Source: a virus. From it: DNA of 64,000 nucleotides. The translations under genes were made by a program, and so were the position numbers. Positions 2,031 through 42,908 of the stretch are shown here, piece by piece. The stretch lies in the UHGV virus genome UHGV-0214148; one strand, written 5' to 3'. The notes under the pieces are model-generated. The model did not search any database. It saw nothing but the letters and a program-made list of their open reading frames with translations, and was not told where the DNA came from. Numbering within the stretch: position 1 is the first letter of the stretch; every line of letters starts with the position of its first letter.

Positions 2031-3527
2031 TTATTTCTTTTTCGTCAGGAACTTCGGTTCTAGTCCATCGACAGCCATACCCAGAATAGTACGTGCAGTC
2101 AGTGTACGTTTACCACCTTTAGTTTCCTGGTCTTTAAACATCCAGTATTCTACCGTGTTGTCCAGAATTTCATTCCAGTCCCACTTCTCGTCAATCAGTT
2201 TGTAAATCTCACCCATGCTGAGATGATACTTCATTTCAAGACGATGGTAGTTGTTTTGCATATACGCAATTGCCGCAGTGATTTCTAAAGCGCGACGTAA
2301 GCGTGCGTTATCAGAAATCATGTCGCGGATTGTCGTGCGTTGGAATTTCACACCAGGTAGAATGTCCAGTTCTTTGATGGAGCCGCCACTACCGCTTGAT
2401 GTGAAACCAAAGTCTGACTTCTTCAGCGTGTCACTTAAATAGTGCCACAGGCTCAGGTGATATAACAGACCCATTTCCTGAGAGAAGATCATCTGAAATT
2501 TCACACCGGTGTGACCACCCTTCGCACGATACTGGGTAAAGGTGATAATCTTCAAGTCGTTTACCGACGCATTCATCGCTTTAGAACGTGACGTCGGATA
2601 AAGTTCTTCGTTAACACCGGTCTGTGCGTTATAGCTCTGGTCTTTCTTCAGTTCCCCTGATTTCGTCGCGACAATAAAAGAGTTTGTTAAGAAGCTAAGC
2701 TGACGGCGAGGAATACCTGCGAATTTTAGATCGTCGTTGGCGTCGTCGAGAATTTTCGCATTTGCTTTTTGTGCCTGTCGACCACCCGCCATCGCTTTCC
2801 CAGAGTCATCGGCCATCTGTGCCACGAAGCCCATGTAAAAACCGCCGCGTGCAAACGCAGACGGCCAGCGGCTCATCATATTCGATTTTTGCAGCGCATC
2901 GTGGGCGTTCAGGATGTTCTGATCAGAATCCCCGATATCCGTTTTTGCGTGCTTGTCTTCCAGCGAACTGGAATGCCATTCTGACAGGGAGTCGATAGAA
3001 TAAAGCCAGGGGTCCAGGATTTCTTTTAACTTGCGACGAACCGGATCGGGGAACGGTGTTACACGGGTTTTACCAGACATATACTGTTTGAAGCGTTTTT
3101 CAACTTCATCACGAATATAATCACTGTAATACTGTTCCCCAGGCATTACGTCAGAACCGACCAGGTTATAACGACCTTCGTGGATAAGCTCCAGTACAGA
3201 TGTTCCGTCGTCGATACCGTTGGCGTTCATGGCAGAGATGTACCCAGTTTCTAAACGATCGAGGGCAGCGGACACTTCTGTATCGTACTTAGAACCCCAC
3301 TCTGCTTTATAACGTTGCAGGATTTGGAAGATACAGAAATCTAACAAGGTGGATTTAAAAGTGTTACCGCGACCTGCGAAACCCATGATGTGGGCAAAAC
3401 CACCGTTAAGGTAGTACAAACCATCTTCACCTTTTTCGTAGTTACCTAAGGCATGATCCATGATGGTGTAAACGTTAAAACGTGGACGAATTACTTCACC
3501 GATAACTTGCTTAGTTGGGCCTGCCAT
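2031..3527 (-). CDS. P-loop NTPase, possible UvsX/RecA-like recombinase
   Basis: N-terminal GGFAHIMGFAGRGNTFKST (Walker A-like with FKS, as I recall for T4 UvsX GPSKSFKS) and a later LYSIDSLSEW (RecA-type Walker B-like IDSL). SD GGAGCGCTAA precedes the ATG. Family assignment is from memory, not from a search. Confidence 0.4.
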   Translation of the reverse strand: MAGPTKQVIGEVIRPRFNVYTIMDHALGNYEKGEDGLYYLNGGFAHIMGFAGRGNTFKSTLLDFCIFQILQRYKAEWGSKYDTEVSAALDRLETGYISAMNANGIDDGTSVLELIHEGRYNLVGSDVMPGEQYYSDYIRDEVEKRFKQYMSGKTRVTPFPDPVRRKLKEILDPWLYSIDSLSEWHSSSLEDKHAKTDIGDSDQNILNAHDALQKSNMMSRWPSAFARGGFYMGFVAQMADDSGKAMAGGRQAQKANAKILDDANDDLKFAGIPRRQLSFLTNSFIVATKSGELKKDQSYNAQTGVNEELYPTSRSKAMNASVNDLKIITFTQYRAKGGHTGVKFQMIFSQEMGLLYHLSLWHYLSDTLKKSDFGFTSSGSGGSIKELDILPGVKFQRTTIRDMISDNARLRRALEITAAIAYMQNNYHRLEMKYHLSMGEIYKLIDEKWDWNEILDNTVEYWMFKDQETKGGKRTLTARTILGMAVDGLEPKFLTKKK

Positions 3528-8987: not shown

Positions 8988-9656
8988 CTATCTAAGAATA
9001 TTTTTAGCGAAAAAAGGATCGACTATAAACTCCTTCACCTGTGAGTCATAACCCGAATGTATTTGATCGCTACTGAGCAAATACCCGTCTAAATCGTGTG
9101 GAAGAATCCAAGAATCCCCCTGTTTAAAAATACCATAATCTGTTGTTCCAGAGGAAAAAACGATTTCCTCTGGAGAGGAATAGATGTGGCGTAAGGCAAG
9201 ATCGGACGGCTTTAACACGATTAATCGAACGGGATGTTGACTGACTGCCTCTTTAATAAACTGTTCACGATTAAAGCAAATTATTTTTTCGGGGTAAGTT
9301 TCGAATTCAGCCCATGTCCGCCTGATAACTAATTTGGAAATCTTTCTCAATTCTTCAGAATGCTCTGCGTAGCCGATACACTCCTTGCGTACTTCATGAT
9401 TTTCTACCGATGCTGCGAATTTTTGGAATAGGTGTTGTTGGAAAAAGCCGTTCTCCGGGATATCACAACCTGCGTTGTATAGTGCAATGATCTCCCACAA
9501 CAACGAAAGAGAAAACACAAATGCTAACTTTTCCACCACTTCCCAATCTTCGGAGTAAGGGGCTTTAAAGCCCCAATACTGCCGTGCGTTATACATAAAG
9601 TGAGTTTGTAAAAACCGAGGGGCTTTTGACAAGACCTCACTATAAACGATCAGCAT
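8988..9656 (-). CDS. hypothetical protein
   Basis: 222-aa ORF overlapping the upstream RNase H gene by 7 bp. Confidence 0.5.
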   Translation of the reverse strand: MLIVYSEVLSKAPRFLQTHFMYNARQYWGFKAPYSEDWEVVEKLAFVFSLSLLWEIIALYNAGCDIPENGFFQQHLFQKFAASVENHEVRKECIGYAEHSEELRKISKLVIRRTWAEFETYPEKIICFNREQFIKEAVSQHPVRLIVLKPSDLALRHIYSSPEEIVFSSGTTDYGIFKQGDSWILPHDLDGYLLSSDQIHSGYDSQVKEFIVDPFFAKNILR

Positions 9657-11170
9657 TCAAGCTCCTTATCCGTCAATATTCGTTTGTTTGAATAATAGCC
9701 GCACCACAACCCATGATATTTTTCCCCGATATAAACCAACGCATATTCGATATACTGCCGTTCTGGACGCCGTACCGCCACGTAGAATCGTCCTTCTGGT
9801 TCTTTCATACGGTTGATTTCCGTACGCGTCGGTATGTCGATACCTCGAGTAAGGATAGTTTTAACCTTGTTTTTGCTACCAGGGATATGGATGGTTACGT
9901 CAAAACCTTTATCTACGTTACGATAAAAGTCTTTCTTCGGCTTACCTTTCTCATCGTAAAGCAGGTCAGTAATGTCGTTCATTACGACTGAGTTTTTCCC
10001 CTCCATGGCATCGCGTAACCAACCTGCAAGCTCATCACGAATCGTAATGCAGCGATAAGACAATAACGCGGGACGAAGAATTCGTGTAATCGAAAGATCT
10101 TCAAACATCCACAGGTTTTTGTCTTCGCTAAAATGCATCCGATCGATAGGAATACCGTTAGCTGCGGCTTCTGCGAACTTTTTACGCTTTACGAATAAGT
10201 TAAATACAACGGCGATGGGATCAAATTGACGTAAACGGGGCACCCCTTCCCACGCTTTCGCAGAGTGGGTATTTACTAACTCGTATACGTTATCCCACGG
10301 TTCTTTGGTAAACATTACGCAGAATTGTGCGTCTGGAATGTACTTACCAACGAAGACGATATCGTCCTTCTGTTTTGCATGGTTCCCACCGAACATGTAA
10401 TAAAGTTTATTACCGTTAACCGTAACCGTGGGATGGGGTTCGTTCACCATCGGGTAACAGAACTTCGTAACACAGATATCGGGAAAGGCAGACAAATTGA
10501 CACCTTCACCAACAACTTCTGGTTGCTGATCTTCCTCAGGCATCTCGTCTTTTGACCAATACGGTGTATAGTCTAGCCCATCGCCTCGTGCCGAGATACT
10601 TGAACCCTTCCGTGCTAACTCGTCGGCACGTTCGTTTCCATAGCGTCCTGAGTGCCCTTTAATTTTAAGGACACGAACACCTTTCCCTTCTTTCTTTAAC
10701 CGCTGTTTAACCTCCCACATCCGTTGGATTAATTCCAAGTTCGCAATAGGCGTACCGTCAGCACGACGCCAACCGCGTGCAGCCCAACCATCAATCCAAT
10801 CGTTATACGTGTTGACAACGTAAGATGCGTCGATATAGATAACATAGTTTTTGGCAACGAAAGGTGCGTGTTCGAAAACGGTCAGGAGAGCCACGAGTTC
10901 TGCAACGTCGGAGTGTGACATTTTTGGTACAGGCACAACACCGTCAATAAACTCCACGGTTTCAGGTAAAGGTGGAAGTTTTTCATCCTTGTTTATCTGG
11001 CGGTATCCTGACGTCGTAATCCCCTCGGGAATAGAGGGATGGCGATAAACCCGACCATCCTCAATCGCTTCACGATTAAATAAGTATCCATGAATCCCCG
11101 CTCCTGTACCGAGCGGGGAGGTCAAATGGCTACCATCCGTGTAAATTACTGCAACATCAACGTTCTTCAT
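9650..11170 (-). CDS. RNase HI-domain protein fused to a ~300-aa C-terminal domain of unknown function
   Basis: N-terminal ~190 aa carry RNase HI hallmarks: YTDGS near the start, then AELVAL, IDASY and GHSGRYGNERADELARKG. The C-terminal two thirds have no recognisable motif. Confidence 0.7.
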   Translation of the reverse strand: MKNVDVAVIYTDGSHLTSPLGTGAGIHGYLFNREAIEDGRVYRHPSIPEGITTSGYRQINKDEKLPPLPETVEFIDGVVPVPKMSHSDVAELVALLTVFEHAPFVAKNYVIYIDASYVVNTYNDWIDGWAARGWRRADGTPIANLELIQRMWEVKQRLKKEGKGVRVLKIKGHSGRYGNERADELARKGSSISARGDGLDYTPYWSKDEMPEEDQQPEVVGEGVNLSAFPDICVTKFCYPMVNEPHPTVTVNGNKLYYMFGGNHAKQKDDIVFVGKYIPDAQFCVMFTKEPWDNVYELVNTHSAKAWEGVPRLRQFDPIAVVFNLFVKRKKFAEAAANGIPIDRMHFSEDKNLWMFEDLSITRILRPALLSYRCITIRDELAGWLRDAMEGKNSVVMNDITDLLYDEKGKPKKDFYRNVDKGFDVTIHIPGSKNKVKTILTRGIDIPTRTEINRMKEPEGRFYVAVRRPERQYIEYALVYIGEKYHGLWCGYYSNKRILTDKELEC

Positions 11171-11172
11171 TC

Positions 11173-11907
11173 TTAATCCCTGGTTAATTGATCACGAATC
11201 TGCGGCGCAACATACTCGCCCGTTTTCAGTTCTTCGTGACAGGCTTTGGCGCGTTCAAACCCGTATTGGCGAGTGACCAAAGCGAGGTGGTAAATACGTG
11301 CCGTGGTGTAGGCTTCTTTTGCTGCATCCCACATTGCATGGTGCTCAAAAGCGGGCTTACCGCGTGTCCAGTAAATTTGCTCTACGGTTAGGTCAGGCTC
11401 GAACCCAAATGCAAAGGCTAAACGTTCTGCGGTACGATCGCTATCCAGTGCACTGAATTTACGGAACTTCCCTGGCGGAATATCACATTGTGCGAATGCG
11501 TTCATGAAAATCGGCGCATCGAAGTCAGGACCACGCATGGTAATAACAAACTCGTGTTTTGCGGTGATCTCCCCGAGCCATTTTTGCATCGCCCACAGCG
11601 CGTCTGGCAATGCTGTTGTCCCACCCCATGCCTCCGCATAAGCTTCACGAGACGGTGCGTATTCGGGTTCGCCTTTACCTTCCCACCAACCGACGGTTTG
11701 TGGGTCTTCGTGGAAAATGGCTTTTGCTTTAGGATCGTTAGGATCGATCCTGATGTATGAGGAACCGACCATTTTCAATGTAGGGACGTCAAAAGCCACT
11801 AAACCCGCACTTAACAGATAAGCATCGGGACGTAATGATTTGGTTTCAGCATCAGCGCCAATAACCAGCGTCGGAGTGTACGGGGTGACAATTTTTGGGT
11901 AGGTCAT
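11173..11907 (-). CDS. DEDDh-type 3'-5' exonuclease
   Basis: LVIGADAETKS (exo motif I D-x-E), RGPDFDAPI (motif II) and HHAMWDAA (motif III H-x4-D), in the order expected for the DnaQ/RNase T superfamily. Confidence 0.6.
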   Translation of the reverse strand: MTYPKIVTPYTPTLVIGADAETKSLRPDAYLLSAGLVAFDVPTLKMVGSSYIRIDPNDPKAKAIFHEDPQTVGWWEGKGEPEYAPSREAYAEAWGGTTALPDALWAMQKWLGEITAKHEFVITMRGPDFDAPIFMNAFAQCDIPPGKFRKFSALDSDRTAERLAFAFGFEPDLTVEQIYWTRGKPAFEHHAMWDAAKEAYTTARIYHLALVTRQYGFERAKACHEELKTGEYVAPQIRDQLTRD

Positions 11908-17172: not shown

Positions 17173-17682
17173 TTAGAAGAACGGCTGATTTGGAATGACA
17201 GCGTACTCTAAAATGAACATATGTTCCGGGGCGTCTTCTTTACGCCAGACTTTGTGTGTCGACACAAGTTTTTCCAGAATCGTTAAGAAACTACGTTGGC
17301 AGTATGTGTTTTCACCAAGCAGTAGATTTTGAAGTTCTACAGTAGCGTCCATATACGCCTGTTTAAAGACTAAACTACGGTTATACTGCCCGGTAAAATT
17401 CCAAAGCAAGACCTTCCCTTCTTCGGTTTCTTTTACCGTTGGCCGTAAACCACAAATCCACAGTAAGGCAAGGTTGACGTTCCAGTCAAACTCTAAACCT
17501 TCTTCTTCGTCAACACCGAATGCTGTGGGTAAAGCATCGTAAAATTCGTGTTTCTCTGCGAATTCTTCATCCGACTTAATCTCGTCTTCGATACTGCTTC
17601 GGACGATACTGTAAACGTCTTTCGCGGTCAATTGTGCGGCTTTTGTAATGCCTTTATACCAATCGGTTACTACGATGCTCAA
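17173..17682 (-). CDS. hypothetical protein
   Basis: 169-aa ORF overlapping the upstream gene by 4 bp. Confidence 0.5.
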   Translation of the reverse strand: MSIVVTDWYKGITKAAQLTAKDVYSIVRSSIEDEIKSDEEFAEKHEFYDALPTAFGVDEEEGLEFDWNVNLALLWICGLRPTVKETEEGKVLLWNFTGQYNRSLVFKQAYMDATVELQNLLLGENTYCQRSFLTILEKLVSTHKVWRKEDAPEHMFILEYAVIPNQPFF

Positions 17683-18377
17683 AGGGTAACTCCTCTATTG
17701 ATTGGAAAACTCGTGTTTATCGTATCCCAAATTCTACTAACTTCCGCCAGTTGAATCTGACGTGGTGTTTTCTTCGCAAACGCAAGCTGACGTGGGGCCG
17801 AGCCCACAACAACAGGCACATCGATTTTCGCGCTATAGAACGCGGCGTCTTTCATAAAGCCTGCCATTTCTCGTTGTGCTGCTCGAGATTTGCTTTTGAT
17901 TCGCGTGTGAGCGCCACTTTCACCCCAGTGGTAAGCTAACGCAACTTCAGCCATGGTGGGCTTGCGTTTGAGTCGTTTGGTTAACCCCTTCTCAAGATGT
18001 TTAACATACGCAGTAGCCAGCAAAACAGCGTTACGCGGATTATACAAATCGGCATTCTGACTAAGACCTAATTCTTTTCCATAAAGCTTTAGCAGATTAC
18101 GCTTGGTACTTGGAAGCATCTGTACCAGGCTGTGTGCTCGTGAGCTTTTGTTGTAAGCCTTGGGATCAAAACGCGATTCACGATAAATCAGTGTAATCAT
18201 CAGCTTGGGATCAACGCCCTGCTTTCGTGAGATTTCCACAATTAACGGGCTGACTTTTTCGAACCGATGTTGGATTTGTGCAAACTCTCGCTGATGCTTA
18301 GAATGTGGCGTTGACGTTGACGCCTGTGCGTTAAACGCGAAAAGTGTTACCAGTAAAAGAAAGAAGATACGAAACAT
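17679..18377 (-). CDS. secreted lytic transglycosylase-like (SLT domain) protein
   Basis: Signal peptide MFRIFFLLLVTLFAFNAQA (start chosen at the ATG preceded by TGGAGAAACAAA), then an SLT-like core RESRFDPKAYNKSSRAHSLVQM and AYVKHL. Confidence 0.55.
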   Translation of the reverse strand: MFRIFFLLLVTLFAFNAQASTSTPHSKHQREFAQIQHRFEKVSPLIVEISRKQGVDPKLMITLIYRESRFDPKAYNKSSRAHSLVQMLPSTKRNLLKLYGKELGLSQNADLYNPRNAVLLATAYVKHLEKGLTKRLKRKPTMAEVALAYHWGESGAHTRIKSKSRAAQREMAGFMKDAAFYSAKIDVPVVVGSAPRQLAFAKKTPRQIQLAEVSRIWDTINTSFPINRGVTL

Positions 18378-18477
18378 TTTGTTTCTCCAGTTGGATTTAT
18401 ACATTTCCGTATTCCGTAAGACGAAATGACGGCGCGGACAGCTAATACTCCTTTGTTGTGTGCCCTAATGATAATAT

Positions 18478-20174: not shown

Positions 20175-20303
20175 TTAAAACCAACGCACGATGACGAATG
20201 CCGCAGCGGCTAATATGGCCGTGGTGATTATCAATCCACCCCATGAAAGTTCCGCGTCGTATAGTGCGGATATCGCTACATTCGTAGTGTTTATCGAGGT
20301 CAT
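20175..20303 (-). CDS. small hydrophobic peptide (42 aa)
   Basis: My own translation: MTSINTTNVAISALYDAELSWGGLIITTAILAAAAFVIVRWF, with SD AGGAGCAGAAA. Below the ORF-track size cutoff. Confidence 0.3.
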   Translation of the reverse strand: MTSINTTNVAISALYDAELSWGGLIITTAILAAAAFVIVRWF

Positions 20304-20470
20304 TTTCTGCTCCTAGTAATACCCTCACGTCGGAGGGTATTTTCCGGATTATTTGGGCGTTTAATCTTCAAACGCCCATCTGTGTTGTTTAACCAGCAAG
20401 TTTAAACCTTTACCGATTAACCACATCGCACCAAGTGTTAACAGAACCCCTTCAACCATATTCCCTTCTC

Positions 20471-20656
20471 CTAATTCCGCCATTCGCATTCGCGTTGACG
20501 CCAAATTGAACCCCACGATAGTTTAATCAGATAAGATGAAACTACCCATAAAATCATCACCACACAAAACATGACATAAAGAACCGCTAGAATGGACATG
20601 AAGCCAAACCCTGCCGCATCCACAATACGACGGAACCAATCAGTTTGCATAAACAA
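20471..20656 (-). CDS. small membrane protein (61 aa)
   Basis: Hydrophobic core GFGFMSILAVLYVMFCVVMILWVVSSYLI; overlaps the 3' end of the ATPase gene by 17 bp. Confidence 0.4.
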   Translation of the reverse strand: MFMQTDWFRRIVDAAGFGFMSILAVLYVMFCVVMILWVVSSYLIKLSWGSIWRQRECEWRN

Positions 20657-23144
20657 TTTTTACTCCTTCGTTATACACCGCAGGCAATGTCACCCCTTCC
20701 GGTTCGATGACACAGTACGATGCTTCATTAAGTTTAGAATGAACCTCGGCTTCGTGGGAGACTACCAACAGTTGGGAAAATTCTCCCGAGTTTGCTAACG
20801 TTTTAATAAAGCCGACCAGGTTGTTACGGTGCTCCTCATCCATGCCTTCCGAAGGCTCATCCAAAAGCAACGGAAACTGATGCAACTTCAGCGCTTTGTA
20901 CGCAGTCAGCCTGAACATCAGATTAAATATCGCACGCTGCGCCTTAGATCCTTTACGCACGTCAGGAACAGGCTCAGGATGCGTTTTTAGCTGGACAGGA
21001 AAAGTATAATCCAAATCGCCGTCAGTGAGGTCACAAGGCATAACGCGCATGGGGTACGTCCAGACTTGTTCGATATAACGCGTCATTAACTCTGTGATTC
21101 TAACGATAGCGTTGTAAAAATACTTTCTAAGTACACCCTTTTCTGGCGAGAAGGCTTGAATCATCAGTTTGTTATTGAACTGCTGGGCTTGTAAGTCAGC
21201 AAGTTCGCGTTCCAAACTGTTGAGCTGATTCAATTCATTTTCCATCTGACGATAACGTTCGCGTGCGGTTGTAAAAGCATCCAGCTTCCCTTCTCGAGCA
21301 CGTAAGAGTTCCTCGACGACTGTATTTGTCAACGTAACCTTAACATCACTCTCTAGCCGTTCGAATAACGCACTGAAATCATCTACAGCACGTTTAACAT
21401 TCACCAGATAGGTAAGTGTCGTGTTAGCCAGTTCGTGCTCTCTACGACGCATTGAGAGCATTTCTGTGGCTTTACCTAATCGCGACTGTTGGAAGGCGAT
21501 TTTCTGTTGTAAAGCGCCATCGACGTTACCAACGGCCGCTACGGCATCCTGCCATTCTTTTTCCGCCTTCACTAACCGTTGTCGGGTTTCATGATACTCA
21601 ATAGCAGAGTACAACTCGCTGTCAAACGCTGCGCATAGACTCCCGAACTGTTCACGTGATTCAGTGAAGACGTTACGTTCTTGCAAACGCTTAAAGAACA
21701 TGCTCAATACCGGGTCCTTTGAATACGTCAGTACAATCTCACGAACCTGCCGCATATAAGTTACATCAGATTCTAATTCAACACGATAGCGTAATAGGGC
21801 CTCTAACTGTGTTTGCAGTTCCGTGCGCTGCTGTTGTTGTCCGCGAATCGAAGACTCAAGTTCAGGTAAAGAACGCGTAACACCGGGCCGAAACTTAAAC
21901 CGACACTGCGGGCAATCCACTTCCGCTGTTTCTAAGTAGTGATTACGCTCGTGATTTAAATTCTGTAAAACGTTCTCCACTCGCTGGAGTCTATCCCGCA
22001 ACCCTGCGGTTTTTTGATCCATCACCAGAAGCCGTTCTTCCAAAACATTGAGTTTTTCGGTTGAATGAATTGCGTCCAGCGTTGTTCCTAACCGTTGCCC
22101 CCAGACACGCGCGTCGGTAGCCGCACGAAGTTGGTCTAAATTGACGTTGTCGTTAAATAGACCCGGAAAGAGATGCTCGGTGTCCCATTTGGTAAGTAAC
22201 TCACGTAAACGCGCCAATGTATTCTTGAGACCTTCGTGATTCCGCATCAGGTAGTCTTGTCGTGTTGACTCATCCATCAATAACGACAAGTCTTTATTCA
22301 ACATCGATACCTCTGTTTCAGTAGACACGACAGCTTCGCGGGCCGTCGCTTCGTTTTGTCGCGCGACCAGTATCTGTTCATCGGTAGGCAGGCCACCACG
22401 ATGTTGTAATATTGCGTCGATGGTTGGGCCCAAGCTGTTTAATAACGCTTGGATTGTTTCGATGGTGACGGCACGATTTAATCCTGGCAACTGTTCGATT
22501 TCTCGGTTCAATTCACGTAAATCCGATTCCAAACCTTTTAATCTCGTCGCTAACTGCTGCCGTTCTTCCTCGTTCTCAATAACACGCGTCCGTAATTCGG
22601 CGATCTTGCGGCTGGTGATTTCAATACCCCCATTTAAGGCAGTAAGGTTTTTACGTAAACGTTGATAAAACCCTAACGCGTAAGTGAGGTCAGAGGTACT
22701 TAAACGGTAAAACCATTTGCGGCGTAATTCGGTTCCCGCATCGGTTAACAACACCTCACCATTTAATAGTTCTTTAATCTCTTTCGTAATACCCGTGATT
22801 TCTTCAACACGGGAGTTGTAGACTTTCGCATTACCTTGCTCGACGATCTTTGTCCCCGTGGTCAGGTTCTCAATATCGCAAACCAAAGAGTTGCCTTTAC
22901 GGGCAACTTTGAATCGATAGCGTTGATCGCCAACTAAACAGTAGTTCGTGTAAGAACCGCCGTCCCTGAATTCAGTTTTAGCTGGTGCTAAGGGTAAGAA
23001 CACAGACAGTAGACTGGTTTTCCCGCAGCCGTTCCCACCCAGGATAATTGTTGTCGGAGACTGGATAGTGAAATCGAAGGTTTCAATTTCATGTAACCCC
23101 ATCCCCGTAAAACCTTTGAGTATAATGCGTTCAACTTTTAGCAT
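20640..23144 (-). CDS. Rad50/SbcC-like SMC-family ATPase
   Basis: N-terminal Walker A ILGGNGCGKTSLL, long coiled-coil middle with CPQCRF (possible zinc hook), C-terminal LLLDEPSEGMDEEHRN and VVSHEAEV (Walker B/D-loop/H-loop). Start placed at the ATG preceded by GGAGGTGGGT. Confidence 0.7.
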   Translation of the reverse strand: MLKVERIILKGFTGMGLHEIETFDFTIQSPTTIILGGNGCGKTSLLSVFLPLAPAKTEFRDGGSYTNYCLVGDQRYRFKVARKGNSLVCDIENLTTGTKIVEQGNAKVYNSRVEEITGITKEIKELLNGEVLLTDAGTELRRKWFYRLSTSDLTYALGFYQRLRKNLTALNGGIEITSRKIAELRTRVIENEEERQQLATRLKGLESDLRELNREIEQLPGLNRAVTIETIQALLNSLGPTIDAILQHRGGLPTDEQILVARQNEATAREAVVSTETEVSMLNKDLSLLMDESTRQDYLMRNHEGLKNTLARLRELLTKWDTEHLFPGLFNDNVNLDQLRAATDARVWGQRLGTTLDAIHSTEKLNVLEERLLVMDQKTAGLRDRLQRVENVLQNLNHERNHYLETAEVDCPQCRFKFRPGVTRSLPELESSIRGQQQQRTELQTQLEALLRYRVELESDVTYMRQVREIVLTYSKDPVLSMFFKRLQERNVFTESREQFGSLCAAFDSELYSAIEYHETRQRLVKAEKEWQDAVAAVGNVDGALQQKIAFQQSRLGKATEMLSMRRREHELANTTLTYLVNVKRAVDDFSALFERLESDVKVTLTNTVVEELLRAREGKLDAFTTARERYRQMENELNQLNSLERELADLQAQQFNNKLMIQAFSPEKGVLRKYFYNAIVRITELMTRYIEQVWTYPMRVMPCDLTDGDLDYTFPVQLKTHPEPVPDVRKGSKAQRAIFNLMFRLTAYKALKLHQFPLLLDEPSEGMDEEHRNNLVGFIKTLANSGEFSQLLVVSHEAEVHSKLNEASYCVIEPEGVTLPAVYNEGVKIVYAN

Positions 23145-23175
23145 ACCCACCTCCATAAAGACGGAGTGTGGTGTA

Positions 23176-23218
23176 AAAAGAAAAAAATAAAGAAAGGGAG
23201 AACCCGAAGGTTCTCCCT
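23176..23218 (-). terminator. rho-independent terminator
   Basis: GGGAGAACC-CGAA-GGTTCTCCC hairpin with a long T-run on the minus strand after the 23223-23831 stop. Confidence 0.65.
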
Positions 23219-23222
23219 AACG

Positions 23223-23831
23223 TTATTTGGTATACAGCTGATAACCCATTGAAGCCCAATAATCAATGTTCTTCGCGTTTTCTACCCAAACCTGTCCCGC
23301 CTTTGTGGCTAAGACTTCCATTGTCAATGTACAGATCAGATTTGTTACCTGGATACAATTTCCAGGTGTAACATCATCCAGATAAACCGGATATAAAAAC
23401 GGCGATTTAATGGATTGGTACGGGTAAGAATAGTGGCTACCGACTTTCCACCCTTCTTCTACAGGGCAGAGATTATAAGTGCGTGTTTCAGGAACTGCGT
23501 TTTCAGAGATCCAGTTAACAACATCGGCTTTGATTCGATCGTGGTCGATATAGTAGAACACAACACGTTGTGGGATACTTGTGGTACCAGCCGGGTCTAA
23601 AGCCTCCAACGCCTTAAAAGGCGACGTTAACAATGTTGTACTGTTCTCAAGTGCGTAAACCAACTTTTCGTAAGCGGTTGGCGTTTTGCGTTTAAAATAT
23701 TCCCGTAAGCGAGGGTACGCCAGGAAGCCCTCTACTTCTTCTTCCATTAAGTCAATGAATAAAGGCGTATGCGAAAATCGCTCTGCATTTTGCATCGCTT
23801 CAAGAAAACGAACTAATGTAATTTCGTTCAT
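23223..23831 (-). CDS. hypothetical protein
   Basis: 202-aa ORF; no metallophosphatase motifs, so not an obvious SbcD partner. Confidence 0.5.
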   Translation of the reverse strand: MNEITLVRFLEAMQNAERFSHTPLFIDLMEEEVEGFLAYPRLREYFKRKTPTAYEKLVYALENSTTLLTSPFKALEALDPAGTTSIPQRVVFYYIDHDRIKADVVNWISENAVPETRTYNLCPVEEGWKVGSHYSYPYQSIKSPFLYPVYLDDVTPGNCIQVTNLICTLTMEVLATKAGQVWVENAKNIDYWASMGYQLYTK

Positions 23832-23887
23832 CTGGTCTTTCCTTTTAGATCAAAAAAAGAAGCCCCGAGTAAACGGGGCCGGGCTAA

Positions 23888-24364
23888 TTACAGCCCTAAG
23901 TGCGTGAGTGATAAAATAGGTTGTGTTTCACCTTTAATCGTCGCGAAGGAACGATACATTTCTGCGTTACTTGAAAAAACTTCGTTAGCAACGATACATT
24001 CACCCGTCTCTAAAGAAAGGAGATAAATGTAGTCGCTCCATACGCTTTGTACCAACACCCACTCAAGTGCGGTATCATTTTCGCGTGTTGTTCGCAGGTG
24101 GTGAAAGTAAGGACGGATCGCATCAACTGCCGCATTAAAACGACGGTGATAAATTCGGGTTAAATCAAAGGTCCAGATTGTTTCCAGGTCGACTGGATGT
24201 AATGTGCGCACCGTTTCGATAATCGTCGACTGATCGTTAAGGCGCGAGGCTTCGGCGATACGTAGCAGTTTCCAGGCTACCGTTAAGTTGTGGCGAATTT
24301 GTTCAGGTTTAGCCGACAGGTCATGATGAAATTGCGCAGCTTGGTAAACGTTAGATAATTGCAT
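23888..24364 (-). CDS. hypothetical protein
   Basis: 158-aa ORF preceded by the recurring CCTAAAGGAGTATTAAAATG initiation context. Confidence 0.5.
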   Translation of the reverse strand: MQLSNVYQAAQFHHDLSAKPEQIRHNLTVAWKLLRIAEASRLNDQSTIIETVRTLHPVDLETIWTFDLTRIYHRRFNAAVDAIRPYFHHLRTTRENDTALEWVLVQSVWSDYIYLLSLETGECIVANEVFSSNAEMYRSFATIKGETQPILSLTHLGL

Positions 24365-24430
24365 TTTAATACTCCTTTAGGTAAATATGTCGTAAAAAGG
24401 ACCCCGGACGTACCGGGGCCAAGACTACAC

Positions 24431-24820
24431 TCAAAGATCTAATTCGATAGCACCAGCCATCTTGCCCCGTTCTTCTATAACGATCAGATAACGGTCGCGA
24501 GATTTGCTTTTAGCGAGAGTTAAGACAACGGTAGGGTCGCACGTTTTCGTGGTGATAGGAAGAACCTCTCTTGCGACGGAATCGAGCAGAAAGTAATAAC
24601 CTGCGGGACACATTGTGCCGCCATCAGCTTTTACCAGAATATAGCGCCCGTCTGCGCCGACTTCTTGGCAGATTGTTTCACCGACTTCGCAAACTTCAAA
24701 CCCCGGAGGATTGTACTGGTAATCGGTATTGTTGTTTGGGGTTAGCAGTAAATCGTTAACTTGAGTAGATGCTGCTACACTCAGGGAGAAGAAGAATGCT
24801 AAAACGCAGACGAGACGCAT
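24431..24820 (-). CDS. small secreted protein (signal peptide)
   Basis: MRLVCVLAFFFSLSVAAS signal-like N-terminus; 129 aa. Confidence 0.5.
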   Translation of the reverse strand: MRLVCVLAFFFSLSVAASTQVNDLLLTPNNNTDYQYNPPGFEVCEVGETICQEVGADGRYILVKADGGTMCPAGYYFLLDSVAREVLPITTKTCDPTVVLTLAKSKSRDRYLIVIEERGKMAGAIELDL

Positions 24821-24830
24821 GAGTTACTCC

Positions 24831-25241
24831 TTAAATTTTAAGTTTATCCATAGCTACAACGATAGGTTTTTCCGAAGTGTCTAATATCCCTACCATTGGC
24901 ACACCATCTACGACTTCGAAGAATGGTTTGTTATTACCAGAGCATAGACGTTTGTCGTTGTATTCGAGACGCTGAGCCTTCCACGTTTCGAGGTTGAGTA
25001 CGGACATTGGGCTGTCGTAGCACCAGGCACCACCTTGCTCAACGATGAATACGTATCTGCTACCTTTGTATTTAAACAGGCTCTTTGCCTGGCAGTACAA
25101 CCCGTCTATTTCCGTACAATAGAAATCATCGGTGCTATTGACGTACTTAATATTGTCTGGCAACTGTATTGTCTTTGCTGTAGCGTTGACAGAGAACAGA
25201 ACAGCCATTGCAATGAGAAGAGTATTAATGATAGTTTTCAT
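24831..25241 (-). CDS. small secreted protein (signal peptide)
   Basis: MKTIINTLLIAMAVLFSVNATA signal-like N-terminus; 136 aa. Confidence 0.5.
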   Translation of the reverse strand: MKTIINTLLIAMAVLFSVNATAKTIQLPDNIKYVNSTDDFYCTEIDGLYCQAKSLFKYKGSRYVFIVEQGGAWCYDSPMSVLNLETWKAQRLEYNDKRLCSGNNKPFFEVVDGVPMVGILDTSEKPIVVAMDKLKI

Positions 25242-25252
25242 GATAAAAGTCC

Positions 25253-25738
25253 TTAGTATTTAGATTGTTCTACGTACTTCTTAACCAGGTAAGCGAATTC
25301 GGCAACACCGATATCACCGAACCAAATCAGGTAACCGGGGTCGATGTTGTAGTAATAACCGACGAGTTTCTTGGTGTGTGGGTTGTATAGCGTTACGATG
25401 TATTCCCAACCACAAGCGTTAGCTTTACAACCGCCACTTTCAATCCAGATTTTGTTGTTGATGTTTACCGGATACATGTTACCGCCAGGGCCATCCATGT
25501 AACCTTTAGAGCCGAACATACCATCCAGTCCCACAGGGTCTAGTGTTTTATCAACAACGGCTTTAAACGACTTATCGGTATCGTACAAGTCGTTGATGTT
25601 TGGGCACGCATTTGGCTGGCCTTCCCAAGCGTTTCCATCACAGGTAAGCAATTCGTCTACGGAGGCCGCATCTACAGTTGGCGTGGCACCGATAAACAAG
25701 AAAACCAGAAAGAACATCAGTGTATGTAAACGTTTCAT
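25253..25738 (-). CDS. small secreted protein (signal peptide)
   Basis: MKRLHTLMFFLVFLFIGATPTVDA signal-like N-terminus; 161 aa. Confidence 0.5.
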   Translation of the reverse strand: MKRLHTLMFFLVFLFIGATPTVDAASVDELLTCDGNAWEGQPNACPNINDLYDTDKSFKAVVDKTLDPVGLDGMFGSKGYMDGPGGNMYPVNINNKIWIESGGCKANACGWEYIVTLYNPHTKKLVGYYYNIDPGYLIWFGDIGVAEFAYLVKKYVEQSKY

Positions 25739-25756
25739 TGTAACTACTCCTTTAGA

Positions 25757-26149
25757 TTATTCGGCAGGACGATTTAAGGTAACGCGTCCGATTAATTCAG
25801 CGTTGTGAAAGAAGTCCACAGCGGTATAGTTACCAACTGATAGCGGATGGATACTAACTGACATTACTTTTGGTTGTTCGCAGGCGATATCCGTCAGGCG
25901 TTGGTAGACTTGTGCACGAGTGTCAGCAATGAGTAATCCCGTACACGTTTCACCACGCACTAAACGATAAACTTGCAGTTTACCGAAACTGCGCATTAAC
26001 GTAGGCGTCTCATCCGGGTTGATAATCGGTGACTCAGGAGCCGGTTCGTAATAGCGGACATCCGAATCACCGAAAGCATAAGTGCCAGTAATTCCGACCG
26101 CACAGAAAACAATGATAGTATAAAGTATAGTTCTGATATTCATTTTCAC
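25757..26149 (-). CDS. small secreted protein (signal peptide)
   Basis: MKMNIRTILYTIIVFCAVGITGTYA signal-like N-terminus; 130 aa. Confidence 0.5.
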   Translation of the reverse strand: MKMNIRTILYTIIVFCAVGITGTYAFGDSDVRYYEPAPESPIINPDETPTLMRSFGKLQVYRLVRGETCTGLLIADTRAQVYQRLTDIACEQPKVMSVSIHPLSVGNYTAVDFFHNAELIGRVTLNRPAE

Positions 26150-26171
26150 GCACTCTAAAAAAGATTAATAC

Positions 26172-26633
26172 TTATTTGTTAGGACGGGTGTGTCCACAGT
26201 TCTGGAAGAAAGTTTCAGATAAACGATCGCCTTCTACGGTAAAGTTAGCGGCATCGTTACCATTGATACTCACACTGAAAGTTTTGGCATTACCGATAGC
26301 AATAACGAAAGCAACCCAAGCGTGTTCTGCCTTGTCGCTACCGTCCACGGTAGGGATGTTATAGGTTTTGCCGTTTACGACAATATCCATCGTGTTATCT
26401 TCAGCGTTAGTTGCACCTACGGGTTCCCCGTAATACCAAACCATGCGACCGTAAAATTTGCGATTCACAGTTTCTGTGTCACAGTTGATAGACAGTCCGT
26501 TTCCGGCGGTGTCTTCGATTTCGTAAACTGCCTGGCCAGGGTTTTGTATTTGTTCCCAACTATTGATTGCAGCGTATGCGCTATTGAGGCCGAAAGTTAA
26601 AATGGTTATTAAGAATGTGATAAAGGTTTTCAT
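26172..26633 (-). CDS. small secreted protein (signal peptide)
   Basis: MKTFITFLITILTFGLNSAYA signal-like N-terminus; 153 aa. Confidence 0.5.
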   Translation of the reverse strand: MKTFITFLITILTFGLNSAYAAINSWEQIQNPGQAVYEIEDTAGNGLSINCDTETVNRKFYGRMVWYYGEPVGATNAEDNTMDIVVNGKTYNIPTVDGSDKAEHAWVAFVIAIGNAKTFSVSINGNDAANFTVEGDRLSETFFQNCGHTRPNK

Positions 26634-34296: not shown

Positions 34297-37200
34297 ATGG
34301 CTGTCGTCTTAGACCCACACTTCAAAAAACCGGGGAATAAAATAACCGGTGAAGCGGTCGCCGTCATTGGTACGAAATACCGAATGTTGGTACCTGCCCA
34401 CGCCCCTTTTTTCACCACATCCCTGGTGGTCAAGAGCGGCGGCAAAACACTGACCTTAGGCGACGATTACATTATTACACACCCGTACGAGACCGGTATG
34501 TTGCGCACAGCCTATCTCATTCACGGGATGATTTGGATTGTTAATGACAAATACAAATCGAATTTTACGGTAGATTACCACGCCGTTGGTTGTGGTCAGG
34601 CTACCCAACAACAGATTACCGCAGAACGCGAACTCAATAAAGATAAATACCCGACTACGTGTCAGTGGGACACCGTCATCGGGGACGTTTACTTTCCGCC
34701 GGTCGATATCCAGTTCGATTGGGAGAATTGGAAAGGTGAACTGGAATTAATGCAGGCTATTGCTGGATTAGGCGATTCGTTAGGGGAAGTCGTGAGTCGA
34801 CTTAACCCCATCGCACGCAATACCCTGGATTTAGAATACCGTGCTAACAGCAAGGTTATCACTTCCGAGCAGTATGCCGCATACGACAATAAAGGTGGGT
34901 TCACCTACAACACTACCCGTCATCGTTATAGCTTGAGTTATAAAACTGCAACCTTTAACAACTACGCCCTGTCAGTGAAACATAGAATTCCTGCTATTCT
35001 GCCAGACATGACGAAATTGAATCCAAACGAACAGATCGATTGGATGCTCTGTTATGCTAACGGCGGGGCAAGTATTCTACGGCTGCAGCTAAAACAGCGC
35101 AAAATCTCACTGGTCTTAACGGTCGCTATTGGTAGCGGTTCAACAAACTACGATTATACGTTAATCAACGGTTTAACTGACGATGAGTTAAAAAACGATA
35201 TCGATTTTAGTGTAACCCGTCAACCCGGAAACGGTGTTTACGTCATCGTAGTAAAAACAAATAAACAGACCATGGATTATACATTCAATGTCGATACGCC
35301 ACCTGATGAGTTCTCGGCAGGGTATTCGAAAACGGATGTTGCTAAATGGTTGAAGTCTAAAACGAACATTAACCTGAACTGGTATGCTGGACAAAAAGAT
35401 TATGTTCAAATTCGTTCTTTACCCGGTGCACCAGAACCTGACGTCGATAACGATGTTTACCAGTTAATAGTTAAATACCATCAATTAGTTGAGCAGCTGT
35501 ATCGTAACGCGCCTGCACACGAACACGTTACACGTAAGGACAACCCGCACACCGATACGTGGGGCCCGATCCGTGCGTTACAGCTGAATGGTATTGCGTC
35601 GGATGCCGCGTTAGCTTACGGGAAAACGAAACAACAGTTAACGGATTATGTTAATGCTAAGTACCCAACACAAGCAACGTTAACCGCACAGAAAAAACTG
35701 CTTCGTGAATCGGCGAACAAGAACGTTAACGGCACGATTACCACACTTCCGGGTTTTACTTCGTTCACGACGGAAGTTGATCCGGTTTCGATGTCGAAAT
35801 ACGTGAGTCCTCGTTTTAGCGAAAGCTACGTTAGTAATGGTCACAGGTATCACGGTGCGCTTCGTTACACAGGAACGAAGAGTGGATTCGCCACTTCTTT
35901 TAATGCGGTACCTGCCAACCTGCAAGATATTGACTTTATTGTTACCGGACGTAAAACAGCGTCTGGTAATGAAGCTGTCGGTACGGTTAGCCTACGTTTC
36001 TATCAGAAACCTGGTACTAACTCTGGAAAATTTATCCAGCTTACAGGTGAAATTTCTGCGGGTAAAGTCGGCGTTAAGTTGGAACTGAACGGTTTTTCGA
36101 ATACCACACCGGAAGTTCAGTATCTTTCCCAAGCCCCTAATCCAGCAATACCGGATGGGGATTTTACTCTGCGTTTTCAACTGAAACGCACAGGGAACGT
36201 GTTTGATGTCGTTATTACCATAAACGGCAAGACATACAGTGCACGTGTTAACTTCACTAACATGGACGCTGCACTAGAAGCATTGGAGAATAGCCACCAC
36301 TTTAAATCATTGATCAGTAATGTTGCTGACAACGTCACTATTAGCTCGGGGAATAAAGGTAACACGGTTACCATTAAGAAAGCGCCCGACGTCGTTGACG
36401 GGACCCGTTTAGGTGCCCAGTTTGTCGTTGACCCGAAATCCATTAAGTTTATTGGACAAGGTTCAACCGAGGTTAATGCGGGGAATAACCCTGTAACGTT
36501 TCAAGCAGGTACTAACCAACTTATATTGTATCCTGATGATCGTGGGTTACAGTGGCGTGGTAAGAAACTCTTAGACCCCACTACCGTGGCTCCGTATCTG
36601 CCAGGCAATACCGCGGGCGGTACGGGATTATTCTACGGTACATCTACAACCACGGTAGAGCTTACCGGTAGCGGGATAAAAGCATCGCCGTTCGTAGCGA
36701 CTTTTATTCTCCCTACCGCGACCGATACAACAGCCCTGGCAGCTTGGCAGTTGACCGATGAGTTTGGTACCGCTGAAAACCTTGCAGCAACGCCAGCACT
36801 GATTGAAAAACTCGATGCGGAGTTCACCGGTAAATTAGTTGCGGTTAAATCGTACATTAACGACATGCAACTTACCAGCTCGGTCACTATCGACAAAATT
36901 ACCTTTGGTTTAGGTAACGTTGCGAATACACCCGATGTCAATTTACCGATTTCTACAGCACAACGTGCGGAGTTAGATAAATACTCGCCTAAAGTTCACC
37001 AACACCCGTTTACCGCTTTTGGTACTGGGAACGCAACCACAGCGAAACGTGGTCTGATTAAATTTGGTCTGGATGTGGATGATGCGACTTTAGCACTCGA
37101 TGGGAGTGTGGTAATGGCGCAGACTACCCAGATTGAAAAATTGGAAAGTGCTGTCGGGGGTGTTGACTCGGAGGCACGTCTCGACATTATACGTTTTGGT

Positions 37201-38619: not shown

Positions 38620-38632
38620 GGAGAATTTTTTG

Positions 38633-42900: not shown

Positions 42901-42908
42901 TCTTTACG

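What the first reader, a model, noticed from the sequence alone, without database searches (positions are those of the whole stretch)
20175..23144. Rad50/SbcC-like ATPase without an adjacent SbcD-like nuclease, followed by small membrane peptides
The 834-aa ATPase has Walker A, coiled coil, CPQC hook-like motif and Walker B/H-loop like Rad50/SbcC/T4 gp46. The neighbouring genes lack metallophosphatase motifs (no gp47/SbcD-like partner in this window). Downstream on the same strand are two to three very small hydrophobic ORFs (61, ~32 and 42 aa). Either the nuclease partner is encoded elsewhere, or this ATPase works in a different context.
Basis: partly seen in the sequence, partly recalled or inferred. 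Interest (0 to 1): 0.45.

Follow-up and report, generated by a model that had tools for sequence, protein, structure and literature searches.

The report
Jumbo-phage SbcC ATPase; nuclease encoded far away
This is the SbcC/Rad50-type DNA-repair ATPase of a giant phiKZ-like phage. Its SbcD nuclease partner is encoded about 87 kb away rather than next door, a split gene arrangement already published for this phage family, so the finding is real but ordinary.

Summary
An 834-aa ORF (20640..23144, minus strand) is a Rad50/SbcC-type ABC ATPase with Walker A, a roughly 510-residue antiparallel coiled coil, an invariant CPQC hook at its midpoint, Walker B, D-loop and H-loop. Three small hydrophobic ORFs (61, 32 and 42 aa) follow it, and the window holds no SbcD/Mre11 homologue.

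The window comes from a Chimalliviridae (phiKZ-like) jumbo phage, closest to Erwinia phages Asesino and phiEaH2 (71% aa) and Salmonella phage SPN3US (58%). Two IMG/VR genomes of about 221-225 kb carry a 99%-identical SbcC, and each has an SbcD homologue about 87 kb downstream. Its metallophosphatase residues are conserved and its profile matches Mre11/SbcD structures. SbcC and SbcD each hit 290 phage records with almost the same genus distribution.

Thomas et al. 2016 (PMC5105663) already described this arrangement: SPN3US gp186 is an essential SbcC, its SbcD is "drastically separated" in the genome, and a small transmembrane protein gene lies just downstream. phiKZ orf165 and orf065 are core genes with knock-down phenotypes.

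The small ORFs are real genes. They are conserved, have dN/dS of 0.1-0.4, and the first overlaps the SbcC stop codon. Their function is unknown, and their link to SbcC holds only in part of the family.

Verdict: already known, low interest.

The parts
20640..23144 (-). SbcC/Rad50-like ABC ATPase, 834 aa. It is the orthologue of SPN3US gp186, phiKZ gp165 and Asesino gp207.
   Evidence: PHROG 77 'SbcC-like subunit', E=1.4e-91. Pfam SMC_N E=1.8e-8, below the curated cut-off. 71% aa identity to Asesino and 58% to SPN3US. AF2 model pLDDT 81.8. Best Foldseek hit is Rad50 in 7zr1, E=5.6e-18. The family profile hits P. furiosus Rad50, E=7.7e-7.
23016..23039 (-). Walker A / P-loop, GGNGCGKT (residues 36-43)
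   Evidence: Located. G36, N38, G39, G41 and K42 are invariant in 26 homologues.
21903..21914 (-). CPQC zinc-hook-type motif (residues 411-414) at the apex of the coiled coil
   Evidence: Located. C411 and C414 are invariant. phiKZ gp165 has CPSC at the equivalent place. In the AF2 model it lies between helices 365-405 and 426-474.
20751..20954 (-). C-terminal ABC lobe motifs: signature-like KGSKAQR (731-737), Walker B PLLLDE (758-763), D-loop SEGMD (765-769), H-loop VVSHE (794-798)
   Evidence: Located. S733, Q736, D762, E763, D769 and H797 are invariant. This region aligns to the P. furiosus Rad50 Walker B to H-loop segment.
23150..23154 (-). Shine-Dalgarno GGAGG, 5 nt upstream of the ATG at 23144
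   Evidence: Read from the sequence.
23195..23218 (-). Terminator-like hairpin (10-bp stem followed by a T-run) between the upstream 202-aa gene and the ATPase gene. It suggests that the ATPase gene starts a transcription unit.
   Evidence: Pattern scan. This is an inference; chimallivirus promoters are not covered by the tool.
20471..20656 (-). Small ORF A, 61 aa from TTG (59 aa from the ATG at 20650). It has one long hydrophobic segment (about residues 14-43) and overlaps the ATPase stop codon by 17 nt. It is the homologue of SPN3US gp187 and Asesino gp208.
   Evidence: phrog_16515 E=9.4e-5. Conserved with the same overlap in relatives. dN/dS 0.33 against the 87%-identity group. Called as a 59-aa gene in public assemblies. 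The SPN3US counterpart has a TMHMM-predicted transmembrane domain (PMC5105663).
20361..20459 (-). Small ORF B, 32 aa, hydrophobic N-terminal half and a conserved (W/Y)(L/I)(I/V/M)(G/R/A)(K/G/R) core (WLIGK in the window)
   Evidence: phrog_13448 E=1.5e-8. Conserved in Seoulvirus and in Machina-like phages. dN/dS 0.38. Called as a 32-aa gene in L020.
20175..20303 (-). Small ORF C, 42 aa, with a C-terminal hydrophobic anchor (residues 22-40)
   Evidence: No PHROG match. Homologous ORFs are present in the 87% group and in SPN3US/SPLA5c, where the ORF is unannotated. dN/dS 0.10. AGGAG lies upstream.

Best explanation
The 834-aa protein is the SbcC/Rad50-type subunit of the phage's own SbcCD (Mre11-Rad50-like) complex, in a Chimalliviridae jumbo phage. 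Its nuclease partner is a divergent SbcD/Mre11-type metallophosphatase of about 382 aa, encoded about 87 kb away in the roughly 221-225 kb genome. Splitting functionally linked genes in this way is typical of phiKZ-like genomes.

Inferred mechanism, by analogy with E. coli SbcCD, Mre11-Rad50 and T4 gp46/47:
- Two ATPase heads engage on ATP binding.
- The long coiled coils, joined through the CxxC hook, clamp DNA ends.
- The SbcD dimer cuts and resects those ends.
- This feeds recombination-dependent replication and repair. A UvsX-like recombinase gene lies in the same window.

The orthologue is essential in SPN3US, and in phiKZ it lacks transposon insertions and shows a knock-down phenotype.

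The three small membrane-protein genes downstream are real, conserved genes that are probably co-transcribed with the ATPase. The first is positioned for translational coupling. Their role is not known. A membrane tether for the complex, as once suggested for T4 gp47.1, is a hypothesis only.

Shown here: the homology, motifs and fold; the absence of SbcD from the window; its presence far away in near-identical genomes; co-occurrence across the family; and conservation of the small ORFs. Inferred: complex formation and the biochemical mechanism.
For: - Family assignment of the ATPase: PHROG 77 SbcC-like, E=1.4e-91. The profile hits Rad50 structures first. The AF2 model has a head-coil-hook-coil-head layout and its best Foldseek hit is Rad50 of the C. 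thermophilum MRN complex, E=5.6e-18. The catalytic and hook residues are invariant.
- Partner in near-identical genomes: IMG/VR contig 3300029126_000001 (225,000 bp) has a 99%-identical SbcC at 53.7-56.2 kb and SbcD at 143.1-144.2 kb. Contig 3300045988_113438 (220,786 bp) has SbcC at 150.9-153.4 kb and SbcD at 19.1-20.3 kb, which is about 86.5 kb downstream if the map is circular. These loci are 95-97% nt identical to the window across the ATPase region.
- Partner identity: the SbcD family keeps D22, H24, G57-D58, G97-T-P-S-H101-D102, H180, H212 and H214. Its profile matches T. maritima Mre11 (3qg5, E=4.9e-9, near full length) and E. coli SbcD (E=1.1e-6). It also matches PHROG 100 SbcD-like, E=8.5e-64.
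- Co-occurrence: tblastn with SbcC and with SbcD each finds 290 phage records with almost the same genus distribution. One Salmonella Braenderup assembly (locus-tag prefix E1L24_) carries both genes.
- Other family members: in SPN3US, SbcD is at 21.0-22.2 kb and SbcC at 168.9-171.4 kb. In phiKZ, orf065 is at about 55 kb and orf165 at 169.1-171.6 kb.
- Literature: SPN3US gp186 is an essential SbcC, and the SbcC and SbcD genes are 'drastically separated' in SPN3US, phiKZ and relatives (PMC5105663). phiKZ orf165 has no transposon insertions (bioRxiv 10.1101/2025.11.23.690004). ASO knock-down of phiKZ 065 and 165 gives phenotypes, and both are listed as core genes (PMC12571901).
- Pathway context: a UvsX-like recombinase gene lies at 2031..3527.
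Against: - No physical interaction between this SbcC and SbcD has been shown, here or in the papers read.
- Similarity to cellular Rad50/SbcC is remote. Pfam SMC_N scores 34.5 bits against a 40-bit cut-off. NCBIfam Rad50 scores 39.6 bits against a cut-off of 847.
- The signature motif is atypical (KGSKAQR rather than S-G-G-type).
- The position expected for the Q-loop glutamine appears to hold a nearly invariant Thr (T134). This was not checked by structural alignment.
- The SbcD family has GTPSHD in place of the canonical GNHD motif III, and single sequences get no Pfam Metallophos hit.
- I could not retrieve the SbcD gene from the very genome the window was cut from, only from relatives that are 95-99% identical.
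Confidence: 0.9

Rival explanations
1. The ATPase is an SMC-like component of a different system, for example a Lamassu (LmuB)-like, Wadjet (JetC)-like or other defence or counter-defence module. In that case it works without an Mre11-type nuclease.
For: PADLOC gives an LmuB match, E=1.3e-18, 65.5 bits, over residues 2-803. Lamassu LmuB and Wadjet JetC structures appear among the Foldseek hits (ranks 11-18).
Against: - The LmuB score (65 bits) is far below the phage SbcC family score (309.5 bits). LmuB is itself a Rad50-like protein, so some cross-match is expected.
- No neighbouring gene matches any PADLOC model, so there is no LmuA or LmuC partner.
- The gene is a conserved core gene of a lytic phage family and is essential for SPN3US growth, which does not fit an accessory defence module.
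- It co-occurs with SbcD in 290 records for each query.
Confidence: 0.03
2. The ATPase pairs with a different nuclease encoded nearer by. Candidates are the DEDD-type exonuclease at 11173..11907, the RNase H-domain protein at 9650..11170, or one of the two uncharacterised upstream genes (23223..23831 and 23888..24364).
For: Those genes lie on the same strand within 1-12 kb of the ATPase gene. The two upstream genes have no assigned function.
Against: - No known Rad50/SbcC-type ATPase is known to me to use a DEDD or RNase H nuclease as its partner (own knowledge).
- The upstream genes are separated from the ATPase gene by terminator-like hairpins. They have no nuclease motifs or family hits.
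- In phiKZ, PhiPA3, Deimos-Minion and Vibrio USC-1 the gene upstream of SbcC is instead a divergently oriented baseplate gene, so this neighbourhood is not conserved.
- A bona fide SbcD exists elsewhere in the genome.
Confidence: 0.03
3. The small membrane proteins are functional partners of SbcC. They could tether or regulate the SbcCD complex at the cell membrane, as was proposed for T4 gp47.1.
For: - ORF A overlaps the SbcC stop codon by 17 nt. The overlap or abutment is kept in Erskinevirus, Seoulvirus, the 87% group, Machina-like phages and Phobos.
- No terminator-like hairpin separates SbcC from ORFs A and B.
- The analogy with T4 gp47.1 was raised in PMC5105663.
Against: - The linkage is not family-wide. 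phiKZ, Deimos-Minion and Vibrio USC-1 have no small transmembrane gene directly after SbcC.
- The PhiPA3 and Phobos small proteins do not look homologous to ORF A.
- The number of small transmembrane genes between SbcC and the acetyltransferase gene varies, from 3 here to about 5 in SPN3US. That looks like a variable cassette of small membrane genes.
- In nucleus-forming phages, DNA replication is enclosed in a protein shell away from the membrane (own knowledge of the family), which makes a membrane tether hard to picture.
Confidence: 0.12

Closest known systems
Salmonella phage SPN3US gp186 (SbcC subunit) with gp27 (SbcD) and gp187 (63-aa transmembrane protein); Thomas et al. 2016, PMC5105663
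   Same: It is the orthologue (58% aa, full length) with the same local gene order: 202-aa gene, SbcC, small transmembrane ORFs, GNAT acetyltransferase, macro-domain protein, SLT transglycosylase. The SbcD gene is likewise far away. A small transmembrane gene likewise overlaps the end of SbcC. gp186 was shown to be essential using amber mutants.
   Different: This window is from a different, undeposited phage lineage with no megablast match in the phage collection. It has three small ORFs between SbcC and the acetyltransferase gene, against about five in SPN3US.
Pseudomonas phage phiKZ gp165 (SbcC-like) and gp065 (nuclease)
   Same: Same family (about 25% aa identity). Same Walker A and CPxC hook. 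The partner is unlinked (about 55 kb against 169 kb). Both are core Chimalliviridae genes with fitness phenotypes.
   Different: phiKZ has no co-directional small transmembrane gene immediately after the SbcC gene. A divergently oriented baseplate gene lies directly upstream.
T4 gp46/gp47 and E. coli SbcCD (bacterial Mre11-Rad50)
   Same: The architecture is the same: an ABC ATPase head split by a coiled coil with a CxxC hook, plus an Mre11-type metallophosphatase partner. The inferred role is the same: DNA-end processing for recombination-dependent replication. The SbcD family profile matches E. coli SbcD and T. maritima Mre11 structures.
   Different: In T4 and E. coli the genes are adjacent or in one operon; here they are about 87 kb apart. 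Sequence similarity is detectable only with profiles or structure. SbcD motif III is GTPSHD instead of GNHD, and the SbcC signature motif is atypical.
Lamassu LmuB (SMC/Rad50-like defence ATPase)
   Same: It shares the Rad50-like head and coiled-coil fold, with weak profile and fold matches.
   Different: There are no LmuA or LmuC neighbours. The gene is an essential core gene of a lytic phage, and the match to phage SbcC is much stronger.

Membership tests
Rad50/SbcC family (ATPase subunit of Mre11-Rad50 / SbcCD) | Bipartite ABC ATPase head: N-terminal Walker A; C-terminal signature motif, Walker B, D-loop and H-loop | tested here: met
   GGNGCGKT (36-43), PLLLDE (758-763), SEGMD (765-769) and VVSHE (794-798), with the key residues invariant in 26 homologues. 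The C-terminal lobe aligns to the P. furiosus Rad50 Walker B to H-loop segment. The signature motif is atypical (KGSKAQR), but S733 and Q736 are invariant.
Rad50/SbcC family (ATPase subunit of Mre11-Rad50 / SbcCD) | Long antiparallel intramolecular coiled coil between the two head lobes | tested here: met
   The AF2 model (pLDDT 81.8) has helices at 154-405 and 426-664, broken by short loops. Foldseek aligns it full length to Rad50 and SMC proteins.
Rad50/SbcC family (ATPase subunit of Mre11-Rad50 / SbcCD) | CxxC zinc hook at the coiled-coil apex, in place of an SMC hinge domain | tested here: met
   CPQC at 411-414 lies at the midpoint of the coil (residue 409). C411 and C414 are invariant, and phiKZ has CPSC. 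Zinc binding itself cannot be tested with these tools.
Rad50/SbcC family (ATPase subunit of Mre11-Rad50 / SbcCD) | Significant similarity to curated family models | tested here: inconclusive
   PHROG 77 SbcC-like gives E=1.4e-91. However, Pfam SMC_N scores 34.5 bits, below the 40-bit cut-off, and NCBIfam Rad50 PRK01156 scores 39.6 bits against a cut-off of 847. The protein is a member of a phage-specific SbcC-like family and only remotely related to the cellular models.
Rad50/SbcC family (ATPase subunit of Mre11-Rad50 / SbcCD) | A cognate Mre11/SbcD metallophosphatase encoded in the same genome | tested here: met
   Absent from the window. Present about 87 kb away in genomes whose SbcC is 99% identical. 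The metal-ligand residues are conserved, the profile matches Mre11/SbcD structures, and SbcC and SbcD each hit 290 phage records. The SbcD was not retrieved from the exact source genome.
Rad50/SbcC family (ATPase subunit of Mre11-Rad50 / SbcCD) | Physical complex with SbcD and ATP-dependent nuclease activity | not testable with these tools
   This needs biochemistry. No paper I read reports it for a chimallivirus protein.
Rad50/SbcC family (ATPase subunit of Mre11-Rad50 / SbcCD) | Q-loop glutamine in the N-terminal lobe | not tested
   By eye, the expected position (LLTDAG, residues 132-137) carries a nearly invariant Thr134 rather than Gln. No structure-based alignment was made, so the register is uncertain.
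Lamassu LmuB | Adjacent LmuA effector (with or without LmuC) in a defence operon | tested here: not met
   No neighbouring gene hits any PADLOC model. The ATPase itself hits LmuB only weakly, at 65.5 bits.
SMC proper (Smc/MukB/condensin type) | Globular hinge dimerisation domain at the coiled-coil apex, and a kleisin partner | tested here: not met
   The apex is a 20-residue CxxC loop (residues 406-425), not a hinge domain. The best structural match is Rad50, not an SMC.

The most novel reading that the evidence does not exclude
In this enterobacterial branch of nucleus-forming jumbo phages, the small membrane protein whose gene overlaps the SbcC stop codon (ORF A, the SPN3US gp187 homologue), possibly with ORFs B and C, may be a true accessory subunit. 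It would place or regulate the SbcCD complex at the cell membrane, outside the phage nucleus. That could serve host or competitor DNA degradation rather than replication of the enclosed phage genome.
Probability: 0.08. Interest if true: 0.5.

Novelty: already known. Interest (0 to 1): 0.1.

Why it matters
It matters little beyond correct annotation. The window's ATPase can be labelled the SbcC subunit of the phage SbcCD complex, and the missing nuclease is an artefact of viewing 64 kb of a genome of about 221-225 kb. The split of SbcC and SbcD, the essentiality of SbcC and the downstream small transmembrane gene were all described for SPN3US and phiKZ in 2016 and re-confirmed by recent phiKZ functional genomics.

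Two modest open points remain:
- What the conserved small membrane proteins downstream of SbcC do.
- Whether SbcCD of nucleus-forming phages acts inside the phage nucleus.

Tried and rejected
- **Megablast of the 3.2-kb region** against phages, complete E. coli genomes and plasmids gave no match. The phage has no close deposited relative in those collections.
- **Retrieving the SbcD gene from the source genome did not succeed.**
  - The Logan contig SRR29133897_244 (191,461 bp) encodes the identical SbcC protein but is only 99.1% nt identical to the window, so it may not be the source.
  - Look-ups of SbcD cluster representatives P0003, P0004 and P0005 landed in other samples.
  - The look-up of P0143 collapsed the long contigs into 'similar places not shown'.
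  - Two scans of IMG/VR settled the question instead, by finding both genes on the same contigs.
- **Single-sequence searches with the SPN3US SbcD** found nothing in Pfam or PDB. Only the family profile reached Mre11/SbcD.
- **A literature search for 'phiKZ gp165'** returned papers about a differently numbered PhiPA3 protein and was dropped.
- **The Lamassu/defence reading** was considered because of the PADLOC LmuB hit. I rejected it on score, gene neighbourhood and essentiality.
- **Nearby nucleases as alternative partners** were considered and rejected.
Full report
**What is in the sequence**

An ORF runs on the minus strand from 23156 to 20640. A GGAGG at 23150-23154 lies 5 nt upstream of the ATG at 23144, and public gene calls give the same 834-aa product.

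The protein has these motifs:
- Walker A, GGNGCGKT (residues 36-43)
- CPQC (411-414)
- a signature-like KGSKAQR (731-737)
- Walker B, PLLLDE (758-763)
- D-loop, SEGMD (765-769)
- H-loop, VVSHE (794-798)

In an alignment of 26 homologues reaching down to 31% identity, the catalytic residues and both hook cysteines are invariant.

An AlphaFold2 model (mean pLDDT 81.8) shows an N-terminal head lobe, ascending helices 154-405, a short loop carrying CPQC, descending helices 426-664 and a C-terminal head lobe. The hook lies at the midpoint of the coiled-coil region. The best Foldseek match in the PDB is Rad50 of the Chaetomium thermophilum Mre11-Rad50-Nbs1 complex (E=5.6e-18). Smc5/6, condensin, MukB, Lamassu LmuB and Wadjet JetC follow. 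The family profile hits P. furiosus Rad50 first (E=7.7e-7), and PHROG 77, 'SbcC-like subunit of palindrome specific endonuclease', matches at E=1.4e-91.

Curated cellular models match only weakly. Pfam SMC_N is below its cut-off, and NCBIfam Rad50 is far below its cut-off. This is a phage-specific, remote branch of the Rad50/SbcC family.

**Where the window comes from**

tblastn finds the protein in 290 phage records, all jumbo phages. The closest are Erwinia phages Asesino, Stratton and phiEaH2 (70-71% aa) and Salmonella phage SPN3US (58%). Pseudomonas phiKZ-like phages are at about 25%. Erskinevirus and Seoulvirus are genera of the family Chimalliviridae.

Local gene order matches Asesino and the SPN3US-like phage SPLA5c. 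It runs: 202-aa gene, SbcC, small ORFs, GNAT acetyltransferase, macro-domain protein, SLT transglycosylase.

There is no nucleotide-level match in the phage, plasmid or E. coli collections. The exact protein belongs to a 285-member cluster. That cluster occurs on contigs of about 220-226 kb in assemblies labelled Salmonella, E. coli and Shigella.

**The missing nuclease**

- tblastn with the SPN3US SbcD gives nothing better than E=0.57.
- No ORF has the metallophosphatase motif chain.
- The upstream genes have no family hits.

The partner does exist elsewhere in the genome.
- In SPN3US, the SbcD-like gene is at 21.0-22.2 kb and SbcC at 168.9-171.4 kb.
- In IMG/VR contig 3300029126_000001 (225,000 bp), a 99%-identical SbcC lies at 53.7-56.2 kb and SbcD at 143.1-144.2 kb.
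- In IMG/VR contig 3300045988_113438 (220,786 bp), a 99%-identical SbcC lies at 150.9-153.4 kb and SbcD at 19.1-20.3 kb.

Both IMG/VR contigs are 95-97% nt identical to the window across this region. On a circular map, both place SbcD about 87 kb downstream of SbcC. For this window, that means about 66 kb beyond its low-coordinate end.

Several lines of evidence identify the distal gene as an SbcD.
- The family keeps D22, H24, G57-D58, G97-T-P-S-H101-D102, H180, H212 and H214.
- It matches PHROG 100 'SbcD-like' at E=8.5e-64.
- Its profile aligns almost full length to T. maritima Mre11 (3qg5, E=4.9e-9) and also hits E. coli SbcD.
- Single sequences escape Pfam, and motif III is GTPSHD rather than GNHD.

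The two genes also occur together. Searches with SbcC and with SbcD each return 290 phage records with almost the same genus distribution. One Salmonella Braenderup assembly carries both genes.

**What the literature already says**

Thomas et al. 2016 (PMC5105663) report all of the following:
- SPN3US gp186 is the SbcC subunit, is essential (amber mutants) and corresponds to phiKZ ORF165.
- gp27 is the SbcD subunit.
- The gene immediately downstream, gp187, encodes a 63-aa protein with a predicted transmembrane domain. The authors compare it with T4 gp47.1.

Later phiKZ work agrees. orf165 tolerates no transposon insertions (bioRxiv 10.1101/2025.11.23.690004). ASO knock-down of phiKZ 065 (nuclease) and 165 (SbcC-like) gives phenotypes, and both are listed as core genes (PMC12571901). 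SbcCD is also described as among the most conserved jumbo-phage functions (PMC11448039). The finding therefore restates a published feature.

**The small ORFs**

All three are real genes.
- ORF A (20471..20656) has 61 aa from a TTG with GGAG 6 nt upstream, or 59 aa from the ATG at 20650. It overlaps the SbcC stop codon by 17 nt.
- ORF B (20361..20459) has 32 aa.
- ORF C (20175..20303) has 42 aa.

Each has a ribosome-binding site and a hydrophobic stretch. Each has homologues in the 87%-identity group, in Erskinevirus and in Seoulvirus. ORF C is present but unannotated in SPLA5c. Compared with the 87% group, dN/dS is 0.33, 0.38 and 0.10 respectively. ORFs A and B match PHROGs of unknown function.

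No terminator-like hairpin separates SbcC from ORFs A and B. A strong one (23195..23218) precedes the SbcC gene.

The association with SbcC holds in the enterobacterial clade, including Machina-like phages and Phobos. It is absent in phiKZ, Deimos-Minion and Vibrio USC-1. In PhiPA3 and Phobos the small transmembrane genes do not look homologous to ORF A. The number of small transmembrane genes in this slot also varies between phages. A functional link to SbcCD is therefore possible but unproven, and I rate it at about 0.1.

**Most likely mechanism**

The ATPase most likely forms an SbcC2-SbcD2 complex with the distally encoded nuclease. By analogy with E. coli SbcCD, Mre11-Rad50 and T4 gp46/47, that complex would process DNA ends, hairpins and blocked ends to support recombination-dependent replication and repair of the phage genome. 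A UvsX-like recombinase (2031..3527), an RNase H-domain protein and a DEDD exonuclease are encoded in the same window.

Complex formation and the enzymology are inferred. The homology, fold, motif conservation, genomic separation and co-occurrence are shown here.

**Rivals**

A Lamassu- or Wadjet-like role was considered because PADLOC LmuB matches at 65 bits. It fails on score, on the lack of partner genes and on the gene's status as an essential core gene of a lytic phage. Pairing with a nearby non-Mre11 nuclease has no support.

**Verdict**

The arrangement is already known, so interest is low.

Noticed in passing
window 24431..26633 (minus strand): There are five tandem genes for small proteins of 129, 136, 161, 130 and 153 aa. 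Each starts with a signal-peptide-like hydrophobic N-terminus (for example MKTIINTLLIAMAVLFSVNATA). This looks like a cluster of exported proteins in a jumbo phage. The 153-aa protein carries a Pfam YfjT hit in the near-identical locus L004. Two of them match PHROGs of unknown function.
   Followed up: partly
window as a whole; clusters seen: This phage lineage has no megablast match in the phage collection (release of August 2025). Its SbcC and SbcD nevertheless fall in clusters of 285 and 248 sequences. These occur on contigs of about 220-226 kb in assemblies labelled Salmonella enterica, E. coli and Shigella flexneri. That suggests a widespread, undeposited jumbo phage carried along with enterobacterial isolates, either as a carrier state or as contamination.
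   Followed up: partly
window 17679..18404 (minus strand): This SLT-domain lytic transglycosylase (Pfam SLT, E=4.9e-15) has a signal-peptide-like or SAR-like N-terminus (MFRIFFLLLVTLFAFNAQAST). It is annotated 'putative endolysin' in Asesino. It lies about 2 kb downstream of the small membrane ORFs on the same strand, so a lysis-related role for some of those ORFs cannot be excluded.
   Followed up: no
window 23195..23218, 23861..23880, 24400..24420 (minus strand): A GC-rich hairpin followed by a T-run follows each of three consecutive genes upstream of SbcC. Terminator-like signals after each gene are notable in a phage family that transcribes with its own RNA polymerases.
   Followed up: no
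window 34297..48095 (plus strand): Three consecutive very large paralogous genes (1440, 1394 and 1728 aa) share N-terminal regions. All three hit PHROGs 2163, 7449, 7557 and 8078, which are annotated as virion structural proteins or are of unknown function.
   Followed up: partly
L038 (phiKZ), L040, L041, L042 compared with L001 and the window: In phiKZ, PhiPA3, Deimos-Minion and Vibrio USC-1 the SbcC gene sits directly next to a divergently oriented baseplate-assembly gene. In the SPN3US/Erskinevirus clade about 8-10 kb of small genes, including the secreted-protein cluster, are inserted between the two.
   Followed up: partly
L008 4886..6691 (relative from Logan SRR23468750): In this clade the SbcD gene lies about 3.3 kb downstream of a gene with a faint Pfam hit to chimallin, the phage-nucleus shell protein. 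It is also near an RNA polymerase beta-subunit gene.
   Followed up: no
window 2031..3527, 9650..11170, 11173..11907 (minus strand): A UvsX-like recombinase (phrog_97, E=1.1e-55), an RNase H-domain ribonuclease (the counterpart of phiKZ gp155, by annotation and position) and a DEDD-type exonuclease are scattered in the same window. This is another case of DNA-metabolism genes being dispersed rather than clustered in this phage family.
   Followed up: partly
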